Shown piece by piece: positions 22,072-57,866 of a stretch of 64,000 nt of DNA (the stretch's first letter is position 1; the number at the start of each line of letters is the position of its first letter). Location of the stretch: the UHGV virus genome UHGV-0180032; one strand, written 5' to 3'. The notes under the pieces are model-generated. The model did no database searches and was not told the origin of the DNA. It worked only from the letters and a program-made list of their open reading frames with translations. The position numbers and the translations under genes are program-made. The stretch is from a virus.

Positions 22072-22107
22072 AGATATATATTACCTTAGTGAGATTACGC
22101 TGTAATC
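22072..22107 (+). promoter_or_regulatory. phage promoter motif (AGATATATATTACCTTAGTGAG) plus dyad gattac-N5-gtaatc
   Basis: One of five copies of the motif; contains TATATTAC; sits ~40 nt upstream of ATG 22145. Confidence 0.45.
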
Positions 22108-22144: not shown

Positions 22145-22786
22145 ATGACACGTTACAATTTAGCTGACTTCTGCGATTGTGCCTTTTCTGTTGAAGGTGA
22201 CAAACTTGTAATGGCTGCGCCAAACGCAAGAGTCTTATCGTTGTATCAAGCCGAAGTTATTGCAATTTCGATTTGGTTAGCAAGGGCTATAGACGGCGGC
22301 TGTAAGGACCTTGATAAAGAAGTGTTGAAAGTCGGTCGTCGTGAATTTGTGTATAAAGCAGAAATCCAGAGCCGTTTACCGCAGACCTTTTTAAGCAACT
22401 TGCTTAAAGATGTCAACACCCCAGTTGTCAGCCGAACATTTGACGGGGTGAAATACTACTCTTTTGAAGATTCGCACATTGCTATCTGTGAAGGCGAGAA
22501 TAAGTTTTTTACGACCGTTATCTACTTTCGTATTGCCGAACCTACGAAAGAAGAACTGGTTTGCAACACTGCGAACGATGTGGCCGTGATGCGTATGGAC
22601 GATATCACCAGTGCACTATCTGGATTAAATGACATACCGCGTATTGTGGAGCGAGTCTTGGAAGGAGACGATTACTTTAAGCTGCTTCCGCTGGTAGCAA
22701 GCGAAGAAACAGAACAGGAAAGCGCTTTCATTCAGGTTAACCTTACCGCTGCGCAGGCGGTAGATCGTTTCTTCGAAGCTTTATAA
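22145..22786 (+). CDS. hypothetical protein (213 aa)
   Basis: ATG with AGGAGAA upstream; own promoter motif and terminator. Confidence 0.7.
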   Translation: MTRYNLADFCDCAFSVEGDKLVMAAPNARVLSLYQAEVIAISIWLARAIDGGCKDLDKEVLKVGRREFVYKAEIQSRLPQTFLSNLLKDVNTPVVSRTFDGVKYYSFEDSHIAICEGENKFFTTVIYFRIAEPTKEELVCNTANDVAVMRMDDITSALSGLNDIPRIVERVLEGDDYFKLLPLVASEETEQESAFIQVNLTAAQAVDRFFEAL

Positions 22787-30160: not shown

Positions 30161-30164
30161 AATT

Positions 30165-30203
30165 ATCCCGTTACCTTTGTGGGTAACGGGATGTCCTTTT
30201 ATT
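30165..30203 (+). terminator. rho-independent terminator
   Basis: 11-bp stem atcccgttacc/ggtaacgggat followed by a T-rich tail. Confidence 0.6.
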
Positions 30204-30327
30204 TACTCGTAAATGCGTCTTAGACGCTGTTTTACACCTTAAGACGATTAATGGTGTTTAAAAAATAAAAGGTCGTCAGAATGCGATACAGCGCGTTTTA
30301 GAGGGTGATTTAATTAAAATATTTTCA

Positions 30328-30366
30328 GATATATATTACCTAGGTGAGAGAATTACGTAATACTCA
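30328..30366 (+). promoter_or_regulatory. phage promoter motif (AGATATATATTACCTAGGTGAG) plus palindrome ATTACGTAAT
   Basis: Second copy of motif; 10-bp perfect palindrome 30352-30361; ~30 nt upstream of ATG 30397. Confidence 0.45.
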
Positions 30367-30396
30367 TTTATCGAATACCTAATTAGGAGCTATATC

Positions 30397-30540
30397 ATGA
30401 TTTCTGTAAAACACAAAAAAGCTATCTTCGCTGTTGTTATCGCTGTTGTTCTGGGTTGCCTGTACCTGGATATCGATAAAGGCTACGACACTTGCATCGA
30501 CAACGGTAATTCCGTTGCACAGTGCACTGGTCGTGGTTAA
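30397..30540 (+). CDS. small putative lipoprotein (47 aa)
   Basis: SD AGGAG upstream; signal-like MISVKHKKAIFAVVIAVVLG followed by Cys (lipobox-like VLGC); own promoter motif and terminator; below ORF-track size cutoff. Confidence 0.5.
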   Translation: MISVKHKKAIFAVVIAVVLGCLYLDIDKGYDTCIDNGNSVAQCTGRG

Positions 30541-30547
30541 TGTATAA

Positions 30548-30577
30548 GGCACCTTCGGGTGCCCTTAATTTTTTATC
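30548..30577 (+). terminator. rho-independent terminator
   Basis: stem ggcacc/ggtgcc with ttcg loop, then cttaattttttatc. Confidence 0.65.
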
Positions 30578-30594
30578 TATTGGAGTATTTTTAA

Positions 30595-31410
30595 ATGAAA
30601 ACCATCAAAGACTATTTTCCGACCGGCATCAGTAGCGACCATTTCGTACCAGCGGATTCGATGGAAATTATCAGTAAGTCCGGTAGCGGTGAGTTTGTTA
30701 TTTACCTAACTAATGTAGGAGGTAGACCGAGTTTCATTCTCCTCGAGCCTAAAGAAGTAAGTGTCTGTACGGTTGCTGTAAATGTTTCTTGCGGCCTTAG
30801 CTGGTTGAAGTCCAGGCTGTTACGCTTGCTCGTGGTTAATACTGACCCAGTAGTACGCTTAGAGCGATTAAAAGCAATGAATGAGGTTATCCTAGGTTTT
30901 CTGCTACATCCTATTTACGGTAACCCTAAAGTCGCAGAAGCAATACAAAACGTACAGTTAGCAGAGTGGAGTGATATTGACTACGAGCGTGCCTCTGAAT
31001 TTGTATTACAGGCAGACGACAACACCGGTGTGTTCTCACAAACGTTGGATAACGTAACGGTAACCGCACGTGTGTTGTTTGGTCTGCAACGCGTAGAGTT
31101 TGAATTGAAACACGTCTACGTGAGCAATAAGCCAGAGATGGTGGAGACGTTGATTCGTGCGTTCGCTTATCCGTTAGACGGCGAATGGGAACAGCAGATT
31201 AATGAAGCGTTAGGAGCCATGCATTTCCTGGCTGAAACGTTAAGGAAGGATGAGAAATTGAAAGGTCGTGTTTATCCAGAACACGATTTTGTTTGTGAAG
31301 AATGTGGAGCACAGTATCAAATCCGTGTTCCTTTAACCGGCCTAACATTCCCGCAAGCCAACGTGCAATGTAAGGAATGTGGTCATGTTCAATACGTAGC
31401 GATTAAATAA
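30595..31410 (+). CDS. hypothetical protein (271 aa) with C-terminal zinc-ribbon-like CEECG...CKECG
   Basis: ATG with GGAG upstream; terminator follows. Confidence 0.7.
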   Translation: MKTIKDYFPTGISSDHFVPADSMEIISKSGSGEFVIYLTNVGGRPSFILLEPKEVSVCTVAVNVSCGLSWLKSRLLRLLVVNTDPVVRLERLKAMNEVILGFLLHPIYGNPKVAEAIQNVQLAEWSDIDYERASEFVLQADDNTGVFSQTLDNVTVTARVLFGLQRVEFELKHVYVSNKPEMVETLIRAFAYPLDGEWEQQINEALGAMHFLAETLRKDEKLKGRVYPEHDFVCEECGAQYQIRVPLTGLTFPQANVQCKECGHVQYVAIK

Positions 31411-31415
31411 AAGCA

Positions 31416-31460
31416 ACCCCTAATCCCGAAAAGGATTAGGGGTACACTTTATTTATTTTC
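31416..31460 (+). terminator. rho-independent terminator
   Basis: stem acccctaatcc/ggattaggggt followed by a T-rich tail. Confidence 0.65.
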
Positions 31461-31486: not shown

Positions 31487-31645
31487 ATGAAACATGAACA
31501 GTTGTTTCAAAGGTTAAACGAGTTGTCCGTAAAACAGCTCGAATTTCAACGAAGGGTTAGTGAAATAGCGCAACCAACGTTAACTCAGCCCAAAGTTGCT
31601 TACCCAAGAAACACCCAGTTGATAGTTGAAAGGAGAAGTAACTGA
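31487..31645 (+). CDS. small protein, tandem paralog 1 of 3 (52 aa, ends ERRSN)
   Basis: ATG with AGGAGAA 6 nt upstream; paralogous to the next two small genes; G-rich hairpin follows; below ORF-track size cutoff. Confidence 0.45.
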   Translation: MKHEQLFQRLNELSVKQLEFQRRVSEIAQPTLTQPKVAYPRNTQLIVERRSN

Positions 31646-31799: not shown

Positions 31800-31967
31800 A
31801 TGTTCGACAGTATTACGCAAATTTTTAATACTACCGTAAACAATCACGCTCAGCAAGCGAGGTTTAATGAACGACTAAGAGAAGTTCAACAATTAGGATT
31901 AAATAAAAGATTAAATTCTTCCAATAATCCTCGAGTACAGATCTTCACCGAAAGGAGAAGTAACTGA
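31800..31967 (+). CDS. small protein, tandem paralog 2 of 3 (55 aa, ends ERRSN)
   Basis: ATG with GAGG upstream; shares Q.FN...RFN.R...LGL pattern with paralog 3; hairpin follows. Confidence 0.45.
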   Translation: MFDSITQIFNTTVNNHAQQARFNERLREVQQLGLNKRLNSSNNPRVQIFTERRSN

Positions 31968-32065: not shown

Positions 32066-32137
32066 ATGAACGATACGGTGCCAACGCATAAAGACGTTGG
32101 CGTTTCTTACAACGTTACTAAAGGTAATGAAAAATGA
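32066..32137 (+). CDS. candidate 23-codon leader ORF translationally coupled to paralog 3
   Basis: ATG with AGAGGG upstream; stop TGA 32135-32137 overlaps ATG 32134-32136 of next gene; begins with the same ATGAACGAT as that gene. Confidence 0.3.
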   Translation: MNDTVPTHKDVGVSYNVTKGNEK

Positions 32138-32304
32138 ACGATTATCAATTACAGATGTTTAATGCGGCGATGCGTAACCGTGAAAAACAAATTCAGTTCA
32201 ACCAACGCATGGATGAATATGTTCGTCTCGGTCTTGTTGCGGCACCTAAAACATCTAATAACCAGAATATACAGCAACCCTATGTAAGGAGAACTGGCTA
32301 CTAA
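32134..32304 (+). CDS. small protein, tandem paralog 3 of 3 (56 aa, ends VRRTGY)
   Basis: ATGA-coupled to upstream leader ORF; AGG-AGA pair near stop as in paralogs 1 and 2; G-rich hairpin 32316-32337 follows. Confidence 0.45.
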   Translation: MNDYQLQMFNAAMRNREKQIQFNQRMDEYVRLGLVAAPKTSNNQNIQQPYVRRTGY

Positions 32305-57828: not shown

Positions 57829-57866
57829 AGATAGATATTACCTTAGTGAGATTACGCTGTAATCTC
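57829..57866 (+). promoter_or_regulatory. phage promoter motif (AGATAGATATTACCTTAGTGAG) plus perfect inverted repeat GAGATTAC-GCT-GTAATCTC
   Basis: Near-identical over ~75 nt, including 5' UTR, to the copy at 22072; ~35 nt upstream of HTH gene ATG 57902. Confidence 0.5.

What the first reader, a model, noticed from the sequence alone, without database searches (positions are those of the whole stretch)
30397..30540. Stand-alone 47-codon lipoprotein-like gene with its own promoter motif and terminator
This ORF is absent from the six-frame track because it is under 60 aa. It has a consensus promoter motif copy, an SD, a signal sequence ending in VLG-C (lipobox-like) and three Cys in a 27-residue mature part, and is immediately followed by a terminator. 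Small phage lipoproteins of this kind often act in superinfection exclusion or as lysis (o-spanin-like) components.
Basis: partly seen in the sequence, partly recalled or inferred. Interest (0 to 1): 0.45.

Follow-up and report, generated by a model that had tools for sequence, protein, structure and literature searches.

The report
Early jumbo-phage gene for exported mini-protein
This is a real, conserved 47-codon gene of an SPN3US-like giant phage that is probably switched on right after infection and puts a tiny disulfide-stapled peptide on the outer face of the cell membrane; the "lipoprotein" signal is present only in some relatives, so it cannot be the core of the function, which remains unknown.

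Summary
ORF 30397-30540 (+) has an AGGAG 7 nt upstream, a 21-nt promoter motif, a UUCG-loop terminator, a VLG-C tetrapeptide and three Cys.

The window is an SPN3US-like (phiKZ-related) jumbo phage. The ORF is the orthologue of SPN3US_0066 (PHROG 8574, unknown function). It is syntenic in every lineage examined and under purifying selection.

The promoter motif matches the published phiKZ/201phi2-1 early (virion RNA polymerase) consensus TATATTAC...GTG. This argues for an early gene, not a lysis gene.

The lipobox Cys is not conserved. It occurs in 16 of 37 sequences, in at least three separate clades. SPN3US has AFA-V and phiEaH2 has VT-V at that site.

Invariant features are a basic N-terminus, a 16-20-residue hydrophobic segment, and Y-x-x-C-x-x-N-G-x-S-x-x-x-C at the C-terminus. 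AlphaFold gives a continuous helix 4-35, a turn, then helix 40-44.

Best reading: an early, membrane-tethered periplasmic mini-domain whose tether type varies between lineages. An o-spanin role is rejected. A superinfection-exclusion or envelope role is plausible but untested. Lipidation of this copy is possible (about 0.3-0.35).

The gene is of modest interest.

The parts
30164..30193 (.). Strong bidirectional terminator hairpin ending the upstream 268-aa gene (the SPN3US gp65 homologue). It insulates the cassette on its 5' side.
   Evidence: 13-bp stem on +, 11-bp stem on -, each followed by a T-run.
30327..30347 (+). Early-type (virion RNA polymerase) promoter motif AGATATATATTACCTAGGTGA, preceded by an AT-rich stretch (30306-30326). 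The TATATTAC core is at 30332-30339. The transcription start is inferred to lie a few bases downstream, around 30345-30350.
   Evidence: Three perfect copies in the window (22072, 30327, 57829) against 0 expected. The same motif lies 67 nt upstream of SPN3US_0066 and SEGD1_067. It matches the published consensus TATATTAC (phiKZ) and TTTRARR-BTATATTACDWHDGTG (201phi2-1) (PMC7058600 Table 2). Its role as an early promoter recognised by the virion polymerase is stated in PMC7598289. Activity in this phage is inferred, not measured.
30385..30389 (+). Shine-Dalgarno AGGAG, 7 nt before the ATG.
   Evidence: Read directly.
30397..30540 (+). CDS, 47 codons plus TAA. It is a member of the SPN3US gp66 family (PHROG 8574).
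30397..30468 (+). Residues 1-24: basic N-region MISVKHKK followed by the hydrophobic segment AIFAVVIAVVLGCLYL (16 uncharged residues). This is an export signal, a membrane anchor, or both.
   Evidence: uncharged span 9-24. The AlphaFold helix 4-35 runs through it without a break. Hydrophobic character is conserved while the sequence is not.
30448..30459 (+). Lipobox-like tetrapeptide V18-L19-G20-C21 (Cys codon TGC at 30457-30459).
   Evidence: This column is Cys in 16 of 37 family sequences and V, S, T, A, L, W or I in the rest. The Cys forms fall in three separate clades.
30469..30537 (+). Residues 25-47: predicted periplasmic tail with the family signature Y30-x-x-C33-x-x-N36-G37-x-S39-x-x-x-C43-TGRG. 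It probably forms a C33-C43 disulfide-stapled helix-turn-helix.
   Evidence: C33, G37, S39 and C43 are invariant; Y30 and N36 are at least 90% conserved. AlphaFold mean pLDDT is 86.6, with the helix running to residue 35, a turn at 36-39, and a helix at 40-44. The disulfide itself is inferred.
30548..30574 (+). Intrinsic terminator GGCACC-UUCG-GGUGCC plus CTTAATTTTTT.
   Evidence: A near-identical terminator follows the orthologue in Machina and pEa_SNUABM_6.

Best explanation
The locus is a self-contained early transcription unit of an SPN3US-like, phiKZ-related jumbo phage.

Expression. A promoter of the type read by the virion-packaged RNA polymerase drives a roughly 230-nt monocistronic mRNA that ends at a UUCG-loop terminator. 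The promoter motif and terminator are shown; timing is inferred.

Product. The 47-residue protein is the orthologue of SPN3US gp66 (shown). Its basic N-terminus stays in the cytoplasm. Its 16-residue hydrophobic segment inserts in the inner membrane. The last ~23 residues face the periplasm, where Cys33 and Cys43 are oxidised to staple a short helix-turn-helix (topology and disulfide inferred from the charge distribution, the conservation pattern and the AlphaFold model).

Where the function lies. The conserved, and therefore functional, part is this periplasmic mini-domain. The tether is generic and interchangeable: in most relatives it is a plain hydrophobic anchor or signal sequence, and in three clades, including this one, it has acquired a Cys in a lipobox-like context. 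This copy most likely stays an uncleaved N-in/C-out anchor (about 0.5). It could instead be lipidated and sent to the outer membrane (about 0.3-0.35).

Functional inference (weakest step, about 0.3-0.35). Made within minutes of infection and displayed in the periplasm, the peptide binds a conserved envelope-side partner. That partner would be either a component of incoming sister phages or a host envelope protein. The effect would be to protect or re-programme the envelope of the infected cell, in the manner of the early periplasmic exclusion proteins of T4 and T5.
For: - Real gene: 61 phage records carry it. PHROG 8574 is hit full length at E = 3e-23. Synteny between the gp65 homologue and the helicase holds in Seoulvirus, Erskinevirus, Machinavirus, Wellingtonvirus and Derbicusvirus. 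Codon changes are predominantly synonymous.
- Early unit: the 21-mer occurs three times against 0 expected. The same motif lies directly upstream of SPN3US_0066, and 277-1334 nt upstream with extra small genes in between in most of the other relatives; no copy was found within 2.5 kb upstream in Kwan or pEa_SNUABM_11. It matches the published early consensus. The unit has terminators on both sides.
- Export and topology: there are 3-4 K/R/H residues before the hydrophobic stretch. The uncharged span is 15-22 residues in nearly all family members (13 in the outlier P0036). The invariant Cys pair sits only in the C-terminal tail. AlphaFold gives a continuous helix 4-35, a turn and helix 40-44 at pLDDT 86.6.
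- The C-terminal motif behaves as an autonomous secreted module: it recurs as 4-5 tandem repeats behind signal peptides in P0041, P0046 and P0047.
- The tether is interchangeable: the Cys column is variable, and Cys forms fall in three clades, each sister to Cys-less clades.
- Precedents for a lipobox-like tetrapeptide inside an uncleaved anchor: MgrB, 47 aa, VLAC, not cleaved or lipidated, with C16A neutral; and the PAJU2 i-spanin, with VALAC in a segment the authors curate as its N-terminal anchor.
- Precedents for early periplasmic phage proteins with one disulfide acting in exclusion: T4 Spackle and T5 Llp.
Against: - No transcript, protein or phenotype data exist for any family member. 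A search for SPN3US plus gp66 found nothing relevant.
- The early-promoter assignment rests on motif similarity to phiKZ and 201phi2-1, not on data from this clade.
- The hydrophobic stretch of this copy is short for a membrane helix (16 residues, ended by D25). That is more signal-peptide-like than in relatives (18-20 residues).
- Within the core family, Cys occurs in the hydrophobic segment only at this one column, always after a small residue except in P0034, and was gained at least three times. That looks selected and favours a real processing site. Non-canonical lipoboxes such as AWAC do work (PMC6139136).
- In Cys-less relatives the same site reads AFA|V, AFG|S or LFG|T, which resembles a signal peptidase I site. 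The mature product may therefore be a free ~27-mer rather than an anchored protein.
- No sequence or profile similarity to any exclusion protein, MgrB or any solved structure was found.
Confidence: 0.55

Rival explanations
1. It is a true bacterial-type lipoprotein. Lgt adds diacylglycerol to Cys21 and LspA cuts after Gly20. [quoted passage not shown] There it acts like T5 Llp or Cor, blocking a receptor or channel from the periplasmic side.
For: - The protein passes the PROSITE PS51257-style rule: K/R in the first 7 residues, six non-charged residues, then [LIVMFWSTAG]2-[LIVMFYSTAGCQ]-[AGS]-C with the Cys at position 21 (pattern written from memory).
- UniRef labels the Kwan orthologue (AAAC) 'Lipoprotein'.
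- The geometry is that of a signal peptide: an n-region of 8 residues and an h-region of 12.
- Cys was gained at least three times, at exactly this column and nowhere else in the hydrophobic segment.
- Deviant lipoboxes can be functional (AWAC).
- T5 Llp is an early small outer-membrane lipoprotein with one disulfide.
Against: - About 57% of family sequences lack the Cys, including the model phage SPN3US, so lipidation cannot be the conserved mechanism.
- Position -2 is Leu, which is outside the consensus [LVI][ASTVI][GAS]C.
- Residues +2 to +4 are hydrophobic (LYL; SYI or AII in other Cys forms), and they are no less hydrophobic than in Cys-less members. There is therefore no sign that the anchor became dispensable.
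- xL[AG]C followed by hydrophobic residues is curated as part of an h-region or membrane segment in phage 25 and Bcep1 o-spanins and in the PAJU2 i-spanin. It is experimentally not processed in MgrB.
Confidence: 0.3
2. The N-terminal 20 residues are a cleavable signal peptide throughout the family: signal peptidase I in Cys-less members and signal peptidase II here. On this reading the active species is a free or lipid-capped ~27-residue periplasmic peptide rather than a membrane-spanning protein.
For: - The -1 position is G, A, S or T in nearly all members, and -3 is A, L, V or T.
- The -2 position is often F or L. Examples are AFA|V, AFG|S, LFG|T and ALS|V.
- Repeated switching to Cys at +1 is the classic one-step route between the two peptidase types.
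- The total length of 20 residues is typical of a signal peptide.
Against: - There is no polar c-region or helix breaker before the site.
- The 5-7 residues after it are hydrophobic, giving one continuous 16-20-residue hydrophobic helix.
- Some members have V or I at -1 (pEa_SNUABM_11, P0031).
- No cleavage predictor could be run here.
Confidence: 0.12
3. It is a lysis component: an o-spanin (outer-membrane half of a spanin pair) or another lysis-cassette membrane protein.
For: - It is small and has a lipobox-like signal.
- It has periplasmic Cys residues; spanins use disulfides.
- Two remote relatives, with E around 2-4e-4, lie next to peptidoglycan-hydrolase-like genes: P0045 after a Tlde1_dom gene and P0043 after a Peptidase_M23+ChW gene.
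Against: - The o-spanin gene is invariably the next gene after, or embedded in, the i-spanin gene (PMC12894885). Here the upstream gene ends in a terminator, and neither neighbour has an N-terminal membrane segment or looks like an i-spanin.
- The promoter is the early type.
- There is one Pro in all 37 aligned sequences, while the well-studied o-spanin families have conserved prolines or proline-rich regions.
- The mature part would be 27 aa, and most orthologues lack the Cys.
- The gene is not next to any endolysin or holin in any of the 17 distinct phage loci compared.
Confidence: 0.03
4. It is a regulator acting on a host or phage inner-membrane protein from within or next to the membrane. 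One version is an MgrB-like inhibitor of a sensor kinase. Another is a T4 RI-like antiholin that sets lysis timing.
For: - The architecture matches MgrB: 47 aa, N-in/C-out, a Cys in the helix 12 residues before the first of two periplasmic Cys, with spacing C-x9-C here and C-x10-C in MgrB.
- High-multiplicity lysis delay has been reported for phiKZ (abstract of PMC12894885).
Against: - There is no homology. hhalign gives probability 14%, over the membrane helix only, and no member gave any Pfam match at E up to 10 other than nine unrelated chance hits.
- The helix sequence is poorly conserved and the tether seems interchangeable. In MgrB, by contrast, the membrane segment is required for activity.
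- The gene is not linked to lysis genes.
Confidence: 0.1
5. It is a spurious ORF: the conserved element is a non-coding RNA or regulatory DNA.
For: The ORF is very short. The promoter-to-terminator block is 97-99% identical to L004 while the flanks are 55-80% identical, which could in principle reflect constraint at the nucleotide level.
Against: - Across genera the DNA diverges by about 35-40% while the reading frame, length (45-47 codons in the phages compared) and C-terminal motif are kept.
- Changes are mainly synonymous between close pairs.
- The SD is strong.
- There is no Rfam match.
- GenBank annotators called the gene independently in many genomes.
Confidence: 0.02

Closest known systems
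SPN3US_0066 (gp66) / PHROG 8574 family of hypothetical proteins in SPN3US-like jumbo phages (Seoulvirus, Erskinevirus, Machinavirus, Wellingtonvirus, Derbicusvirus)
   Same: - Full-length profile match, E = 3e-23.
- Same length, same position between the gp65 homologue and the helicase, and same C-terminal signature.
- Same early-promoter motif directly upstream in SPN3US and SEGD1.
- Same terminator in Machina and pEa_SNUABM_6.
   Different: - About 50% identity to cultured members.
- This copy carries a lipobox-like Cys21 and a shorter hydrophobic stretch.
- It stands alone. In SPN3US it heads a translationally coupled trio (gp66-gp67-gp68), and those two soluble partners are missing from this window.
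T5 Llp (early outer-membrane lipoprotein that blocks the FhuA receptor; superinfection exclusion)
   Same: A small protein made shortly after infection, acting from the periplasmic side, with one disulfide (Cys11-Cys58).
   Different: No sequence similarity. Llp is a larger folded protein (its disulphide links Cys11 and Cys58; about 60 residues is my recollection, not checked in the paper) whose lipid anchor is a fixed family feature. Here the mature part would be 27 residues and the Cys is absent from most orthologues.
T4 Spackle (gp61.3; early periplasmic inhibitor of the tail-spike lysozyme gp5)
   Same: An early gene exported to the periplasm, helical, with a single disulfide. Residues that contact the phage partner are highly conserved. 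It is a plausible mechanistic template: neutralising a component of incoming sister virions.
   Different: Spackle is a soluble 75-aa helical bundle released by signal peptidase. There is no sequence similarity, and no evidence here for binding a peptidoglycan hydrolase.
E. coli MgrB (47-aa inner-membrane inhibitor of the sensor kinase PhoQ)
   Same: - Identical length and N-in/C-out single-pass architecture.
- A lipobox-like tetrapeptide (VLAC vs VLGC) inside the helix.
- Two periplasmic Cys needed for function.
- It shows that such a tetrapeptide need not be lipidated.
   Different: - Not homologous (and no MgrB hit).
- The MgrB helix is sequence-specific and required, whereas here the helix is the least conserved part.
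- MgrB is a host feedback regulator, not a phage early gene.
Lambda Rz1-type o-spanins
   Same: Small phage proteins with an N-terminal signal ending in a Cys, and periplasmic Cys residues.
   Different: They fail on gene linkage to an i-spanin, on timing, on proline content and on conservation of the lipidated Cys.

Membership tests
PHROG 8574 / SPN3US gp66 family | Significant full-length match to the family profile | tested here: met
   E = 3.4e-23, residues 1-47 against profile positions 1-47 of 47. The profile search returns 36 clusters, all 44-51 aa.
PHROG 8574 / SPN3US gp66 family | Conserved genomic position (after the gp64/gp65 homologues, before the minus-strand helicase and the major capsid gene) | tested here: met
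Bacterial lipoproteins (Lgt/LspA substrates) | Positively charged n-region and an uncharged h-region of 7-22 residues before the Cys | tested here: met
   MISVKHKK followed by AIFAVVIAVVLG (12 residues), with the Cys at position 21.
Bacterial lipoproteins (Lgt/LspA substrates) | Consensus lipobox [LVI][ASTVI][GAS]C | tested here: not met
   VLGC has Leu at -2 (consensus as quoted in PMC6139136). The permissive PROSITE-style pattern is met, but MgrB, which is not lipidated, also meets it.
Bacterial lipoproteins (Lgt/LspA substrates) | Lipidated Cys conserved among orthologues | tested here: not met
   Cys in 16 of 37 sequences. SPN3US, SPAsTU, phiEaH2, Asesino, Machina, pEa_6, pEa_11, pEa_29, CR5, Phobos and EarlPhillipIV have V, S, T or A instead.
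Bacterial lipoproteins (Lgt/LspA substrates) | End of the hydrophobic region at the lipobox, with a polar start to the mature protein | tested here: not met
   Residues +2 to +7 are LYLDID, mean Kyte-Doolittle +0.63, against -0.45 for Lpp and -0.92 for Rz1 (the reference sequences are from memory).
Bacterial lipoproteins (Lgt/LspA substrates) | Actual acylation and LspA cleavage (globomycin sensitivity, palmitate labelling) | not testable with these tools
   This needs an experiment. LipoP and SignalP were not available.
Two-component spanin, o-spanin subunit | Gene embedded in, overlapping, or immediately downstream of an i-spanin gene (a type II inner-membrane protein with a coiled-coil periplasmic domain) | tested here: not met
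   The upstream 268-aa and downstream 271-aa proteins have no N-terminal membrane segment. A terminator and a promoter separate the ORF from the upstream gene. The rule is stated in PMC12894885.
Two-component spanin, o-spanin subunit | Late expression within or with the lysis genes | tested here: not met
   The promoter is the early-type motif. No endolysin or holin lies nearby in any of the 17 distinct phage loci compared. Timing is inferred from the motif only.
Two-component spanin, o-spanin subunit | Conserved prolines or a proline-rich region in the mature part (true of the lambda, T4 and Jersey o-spanin families described in PMC6139136; not a universal rule) | tested here: not met
   There are 0 Pro in this protein and 1 Pro in all 37 aligned sequences. 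AlphaFold predicts a helix. The spanin features are described in PMC6139136.
MgrB family (Pfam MgrB) | Match to the family profile, or detectable homology | tested here: not met
   None of the 15 members scanned gave a Pfam hit to MgrB at E up to 10. hhalign probability is 14%, over the helix only.
Known superinfection-exclusion or defence proteins (PADLOC models, annotated PHROGs) | Profile match | tested here: not met
   No PADLOC hit at E up to 1. The only PHROG hit is 8574, of unknown function.

The most novel reading that the evidence does not exclude
The gp66 family may be the smallest known phage envelope effector.
- It would be a ~20-residue disulfide-stapled periplasmic hairpin, made from the first transcripts of nucleus-forming SPN3US-like jumbo phages.
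- It would bind a partner conserved across Salmonella, Erwinia, Cronobacter, Escherichia and Proteus hosts or across their phages, for example the virion peptidoglycan hydrolase or tail tip of incoming sister phages.
- That would give this phage group its first identified superinfection-exclusion or lysis-from-without protection factor.
- Its membrane tether would have been swapped repeatedly between a plain anchor or signal sequence and a lipid anchor, a natural experiment on how tether type and membrane address affect such a peptide.
Probability: 0.2. Interest if true: 0.6.

Novelty: new member of a known kind. Interest (0 to 1): 0.3.

Why it matters
Early genes of nucleus-forming jumbo phages are mostly uncharacterised, and no envelope-directed early factor is known for the SPN3US group.

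This family has several features that make it a tractable candidate:
- it is present in essentially every member of the clade;
- it has an extremely conserved 15-residue extracytoplasmic motif;
- it can be synthesised chemically.

It could be tested for exclusion of secondary infection, for protection against lysis from without, or for manipulation of host envelope signalling.

For annotation practice it is a cautionary example. A rule-based 'lipoprotein' call, such as the UniRef label on the Kwan orthologue, would be made for some orthologues and not for others of the same protein.

If the function turns out to be nothing special, this is simply one more conserved small membrane protein of unknown role.

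Tried and rejected
- Nucleotide search of 2.2 kb around the ORF against phage genomes. It found only 40-60-nt matches, which turned out to be the shared promoter motif.
- Pfam and NCBIfam scans of 15 members at E up to 10: only chance hits, and nothing for lipoprotein-signal or MgrB families.
- PADLOC: no hit.
- Solved structures: only chance hits with E of 0.03 or higher.
- Rfam: nothing near threshold.
- hhalign against MgrB: no homology.
- A 5'-UTR hairpin just after the promoter looked conserved by eye (ATTACGTAAT here, GATTAC-GCT-GTAATC at the two other copies, GATAG...CTATC in SPN3US). Folding energies are no better than shuffles (z +0.43, +0.19, -0.83), so I dropped it.
- TATATATTAC alone is not enriched in the window (4 found against 3.8 expected). 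Only the longer 21-mer is.
- TCGACTATYAA is not enriched in the window.
- Genomic contexts of the repeat proteins P0046 and P0047 were uninformative.
- A whole-word search for xL[AG]C lipoboxes in the spanin tables found none. A substring search found them only inside h-regions or membrane segments.
Full report
**What is there**

The ORF at 30397..30540 (+) encodes MISVKHKKAIFAVVIAVVLGCLYLDIDKGYDTCIDNGNSVAQCTGRG.
- AGGAG lies at 30385-30389, 7 nt before the ATG.
- Upstream, the preceding 268-aa gene ends in a strong bidirectional hairpin terminator at 30164-30193.
- Downstream, GGCACC-UUCG-GGUGCC plus a T-run at 30548-30574 folds at -11.6 kcal/mol, z = -3.2.
- Between the two terminators sits AGATATATATTACCTAGGTGA (30327-30347).

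The pattern AGATAKATATTACCTNNGTGA occurs three times without mismatch in the window, at 22072, 30327 and 57829. All copies are on the + strand, intergenic, and 65-75 nt before an SD-ATG. None is expected in shuffles.

**Where the window comes from**

The window is identical over the stretch compared to two IMG/VR contigs from one metagenome (3300045988), of 152 kb and 225 kb (L003 and L008). Its proteins place it among the SPN3US-like, phiKZ-related jumbo phages of Enterobacterales.
- The neighbouring 268-aa protein is 65% identical to phiEaH2/Stratton, 57% to SPN3US and 36-39% to the Derbicusvirus group.
- No cultured phage matches at the DNA level except over the promoter motif.

**The gene is real and conserved**

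A translated search with the 47-mer finds 61 phage records, all in this clade. I fetched loci for 17 distinct phages and located the orthologue in each: 16 by a pattern scan and Kwan from its annotated gene KWAN_81. It always lies between the gp64/gp65 homologues and the minus-strand helicase. It is SPN3US_0066, annotated 'hypothetical protein', and it belongs to PHROG 8574 (unknown function; E = 3e-23, full length).

Codon changes are mostly synonymous between close pairs: 13 to 2 for phiEaH2 vs Asesino, 15 to 5 for SPN3US vs SPAsTU, and 3 to 0 for the window vs L004. A profile search of 5.8 billion proteins returns 36 clusters of 44-51 aa. An exhaustive HMMER pass over 1.84 billion representatives finds only 19 at E of 1e-3 or better. 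The family is small and clade-restricted.

**What is conserved and what is not**

In the 37-sequence alignment, C33, G37, S39 and C43 are invariant. Y30 and N36 are at least 90% conserved. The tail reads [DG]Y-x-x-C-x-x-N-G-x-S-x-x-x-C-TGRG. The N-terminal half keeps only its character: 2-4 basic residues, then an uncharged stretch of 15-22 residues in nearly all members (13 in the outlier P0036).

The column of the proposed lipidated Cys is Cys in 16 of 37 sequences and V, S, T, A, L, W or I otherwise. Examples:
- VLG-C in the window clade
- ALA-C or TLA-C in ChrisDB, Caitlin and pEa_9
- AAA-C in Kwan
- AFA-V in SPN3US and SPAsTU
- LVT-V in phiEaH2 and Asesino
- AFG-S in Machina
- LLG-T in CR5

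On a tree of the adjacent virion protein, the Cys forms fall in three clades, each sister to Cys-less clades. Lipidation therefore cannot be the conserved basis of the function. The conserved business end is the C-terminal tail.

AlphaFold2 with this alignment gives mean pLDDT 86.6, one unbroken helix 4-35, a turn at N36-S39 and a short helix 40-44. That places C33 and C43 on the two arms of a hairpin. The disulfide is an inference.

The same motif recurs as 4-5 tandem copies behind signal peptides in three unrelated metagenomic proteins (P0041, P0046, P0047). This fits an autonomous, oxidised, extracytoplasmic mini-module. No curated family covers it; there are only sub-threshold Thionin hits.

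**Is this copy a lipoprotein?**

For:
- It satisfies the permissive PROSITE-type rule.
- UniRef labels the Kwan orthologue 'Lipoprotein'.
- The n-region (8 residues) and h-region (12 residues) have signal-peptide proportions.
- The hydrophobic stretch is shorter here (16 residues, ended by D25) than in relatives.
- Cys has appeared at least three times at exactly this column and nowhere else in the hydrophobic segment.
- Deviant lipoboxes can work (AWAC).

Against:
- Leu at -2 lies outside the consensus [LVI][ASTVI][GAS]C.
- The following residues are hydrophobic, and no less so than in Cys-less members.
- Tetrapeptides of this kind, followed by hydrophobic residues, are treated as part of the h-region or membrane segment in curated spanin tables. 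Examples are phage 25 ILLGC-LLITSC|ASK, Bcep1 MLLAC-SALAAC|KT, and the PAJU2 i-spanin VALAC-LLLVG.
- In E. coli MgrB (47 aa, VLAC-LLLW) an N-terminal GFP is not cleaved off, which the authors take to mean that MgrB is neither secreted nor lipidated. C16A is neutral.

In Cys-less relatives the site also resembles a signal peptidase I site (AFA|V, AFG|S, LFG|T), so three processing models remain. My estimates for this copy are:
- uncleaved N-in/C-out anchor, about 0.5
- lipoprotein, about 0.3-0.35
- signal peptidase I-type release, about 0.1

**Timing**

The promoter motif contains TATATTAC followed by CTAG-GTG. Published consensus sequences are TATATTAC for phiKZ and TTTRARR-BTATATTACDWHDGTG for 201phi2-1 (PMC7058600, Table 2). 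Such AT-rich motifs, centred near -10, are the early promoters read by the virion-packaged RNA polymerase in every RNAP-encoding jumbo phage where transcripts were mapped (PMC7598289).

The identical motif lies 67 nt upstream of SPN3US_0066. In most of the other relatives it lies 277-1334 nt upstream, with one to three extra small genes inserted in between; no copy was found within 2.5 kb upstream in Kwan or pEa_SNUABM_11. The gene is thus very probably early. This is inferred, since no transcript data exist for this clade.

In SPN3US the gene heads a translationally coupled trio with two soluble ~60-aa proteins (gp67, gp68). These are absent from the window, where a terminator follows immediately, as it does in Machina and pEa_6.

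**Function**

An o-spanin role is rejected.
- No i-spanin gene is adjacent or overlapping, which is the invariable arrangement (PMC12894885). Neither neighbour has an N-terminal membrane segment.
- The promoter type is early.
- The protein has no prolines (compared).
- The Cys is not conserved.

What remains is class-level inference. Early phage proteins displayed in the periplasm that have been studied act in superinfection exclusion or envelope protection.
- T4 Spackle is an early gene product. Its mature form is a 75-aa helical protein with one disulfide, and it inhibits the tail lysozyme gp5.
- T5 Llp is produced shortly after infection. It is a small outer-membrane lipoprotein with a Cys11-Cys58 disulfide, and it blocks FhuA.

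The very high conservation of the tail across phages of Salmonella, Erwinia, Cronobacter, Escherichia and Proteus argues for a partner that is itself conserved. That would be either a virion component of sister phages or a conserved envelope protein. The poorly conserved, swappable tether argues that the membrane segment is not the interaction surface, unlike in MgrB.

I therefore favour an exclusion or envelope-protection role, at about 0.3-0.35. Alternatives are an MgrB-like or antiholin-like regulatory role (about 0.1) and other, unknown roles.

Two remote relatives (E around 2-4e-4) sit next to peptidoglycan-hydrolase-type genes. This is compatible with a hydrolase-directed function but is too weak to count.

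**Novelty and score**

The ORF is already annotated as a hypothetical protein in dozens of genomes and has a PHROG. Its kind, a small exported phage membrane protein, is familiar, and its function is unknown.

What this analysis adds:
- the early-unit assignment;
- the demonstration that the lipobox is lineage-specific and recurrent;
- the definition of the invariant disulfide hairpin.

Interest is modest (0.3). It would rise to about 0.6 if the peptide proved to be the exclusion or envelope factor of this jumbo-phage group.

Noticed in passing
window 30320-30575, compared with L004 (IMGVR_UViG_3300029126_000001): The promoter-ORF-terminator block is 97-99% identical between two phages whose flanking genes are only 55-80% identical. 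A second such island covers 31250-31450, the Zn-ribbon end of the 271-aa gene plus its terminator. This looks like recent exchange of a tiny cassette by recombination, i.e. moron-like mobility.
   Followed up: partly
L009 4830/5489/5785; L010 4521/4844; L012 4513/5115; L001 3319/3928; L020 5423/5897; L022 5235/5844; window 30371 (degenerate copy): A conserved element (T)AATTCGACYATYA-N4-12-AGGAR-N6-9-ATG precedes the gp66-family gene and several other small genes of the same cluster in many relatives. It is better conserved than the N-terminal coding sequence. The number of small genes between the early promoter and the gp66 homologue varies from 0 to 3. The element may be a shared translation-initiation or recombination boundary, or a second promoter.
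   Followed up: partly
alignment column of Cys21 (window 30457-30459): Within the core family, Cys occurs in the hydrophobic segment only at this one column. It was gained at least three times independently, with both TGC and TGT codons. If the Cys is not a lipidation site, this positional specificity is unexplained; one alternative is an intermolecular disulfide near the periplasmic face.
   Followed up: partly
window 22072-22092 and 57829-57849: Two further perfect copies of the early-promoter 21-mer. One heads the operon starting at 22145 (213-, 199- and 101-aa ORFs). The other heads an ORF around 57900 whose product shows an HTH-like segment by eye (not scanned against a profile library). 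Both are followed by a GATTAC-GCT-GTAATC inverted repeat.
   Followed up: partly
window 31487-31645, 31800-31967, 32134-32304: Three tandem paralogous mini-ORFs of 52, 55 and 56 aa share a QFNQR-like motif and a basic C-terminus. They appear to correspond to SPN3US gp71/gp72 (judged by eye) and have no PHROG match. Hairpins lie between them.
   Followed up: no
P0041, P0046, P0047 (L026, L027): Unrelated secreted metagenomic proteins carry 4-5 tandem repeats of Y-x-x-C-R-x-x-G-[YH]-S-H-x-x-C, the same motif as the phage peptide's tail. No curated family covers it; there are only sub-threshold Pfam Thionin hits. Their genomic contexts were uninformative.
   Followed up: partly
L024 574-1112; L025 4893-6144: Two remote relatives of the mini-protein (E around 2-4e-4) lie next to genes of peptidoglycan-enzyme type. 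P0045 overlaps the stop codon of a 127-aa Tlde1_dom (YkuD-like) gene. P0043 follows a Peptidase_M23+ChW gene.
   Followed up: partly
L011 4542-5055 (SPN3US gp66-gp67-gp68) compared with window 30540-30595: In Seoulvirus, Erskinevirus and Wellingtonvirus the gene is translationally coupled (ATGA or TGATG overlaps) to one or two soluble ~60-aa proteins with conserved sequences (for example FAEFL..PR.KREWDNL). These are absent from the window, Machina and pEa_6, where a terminator follows instead.
   Followed up: no
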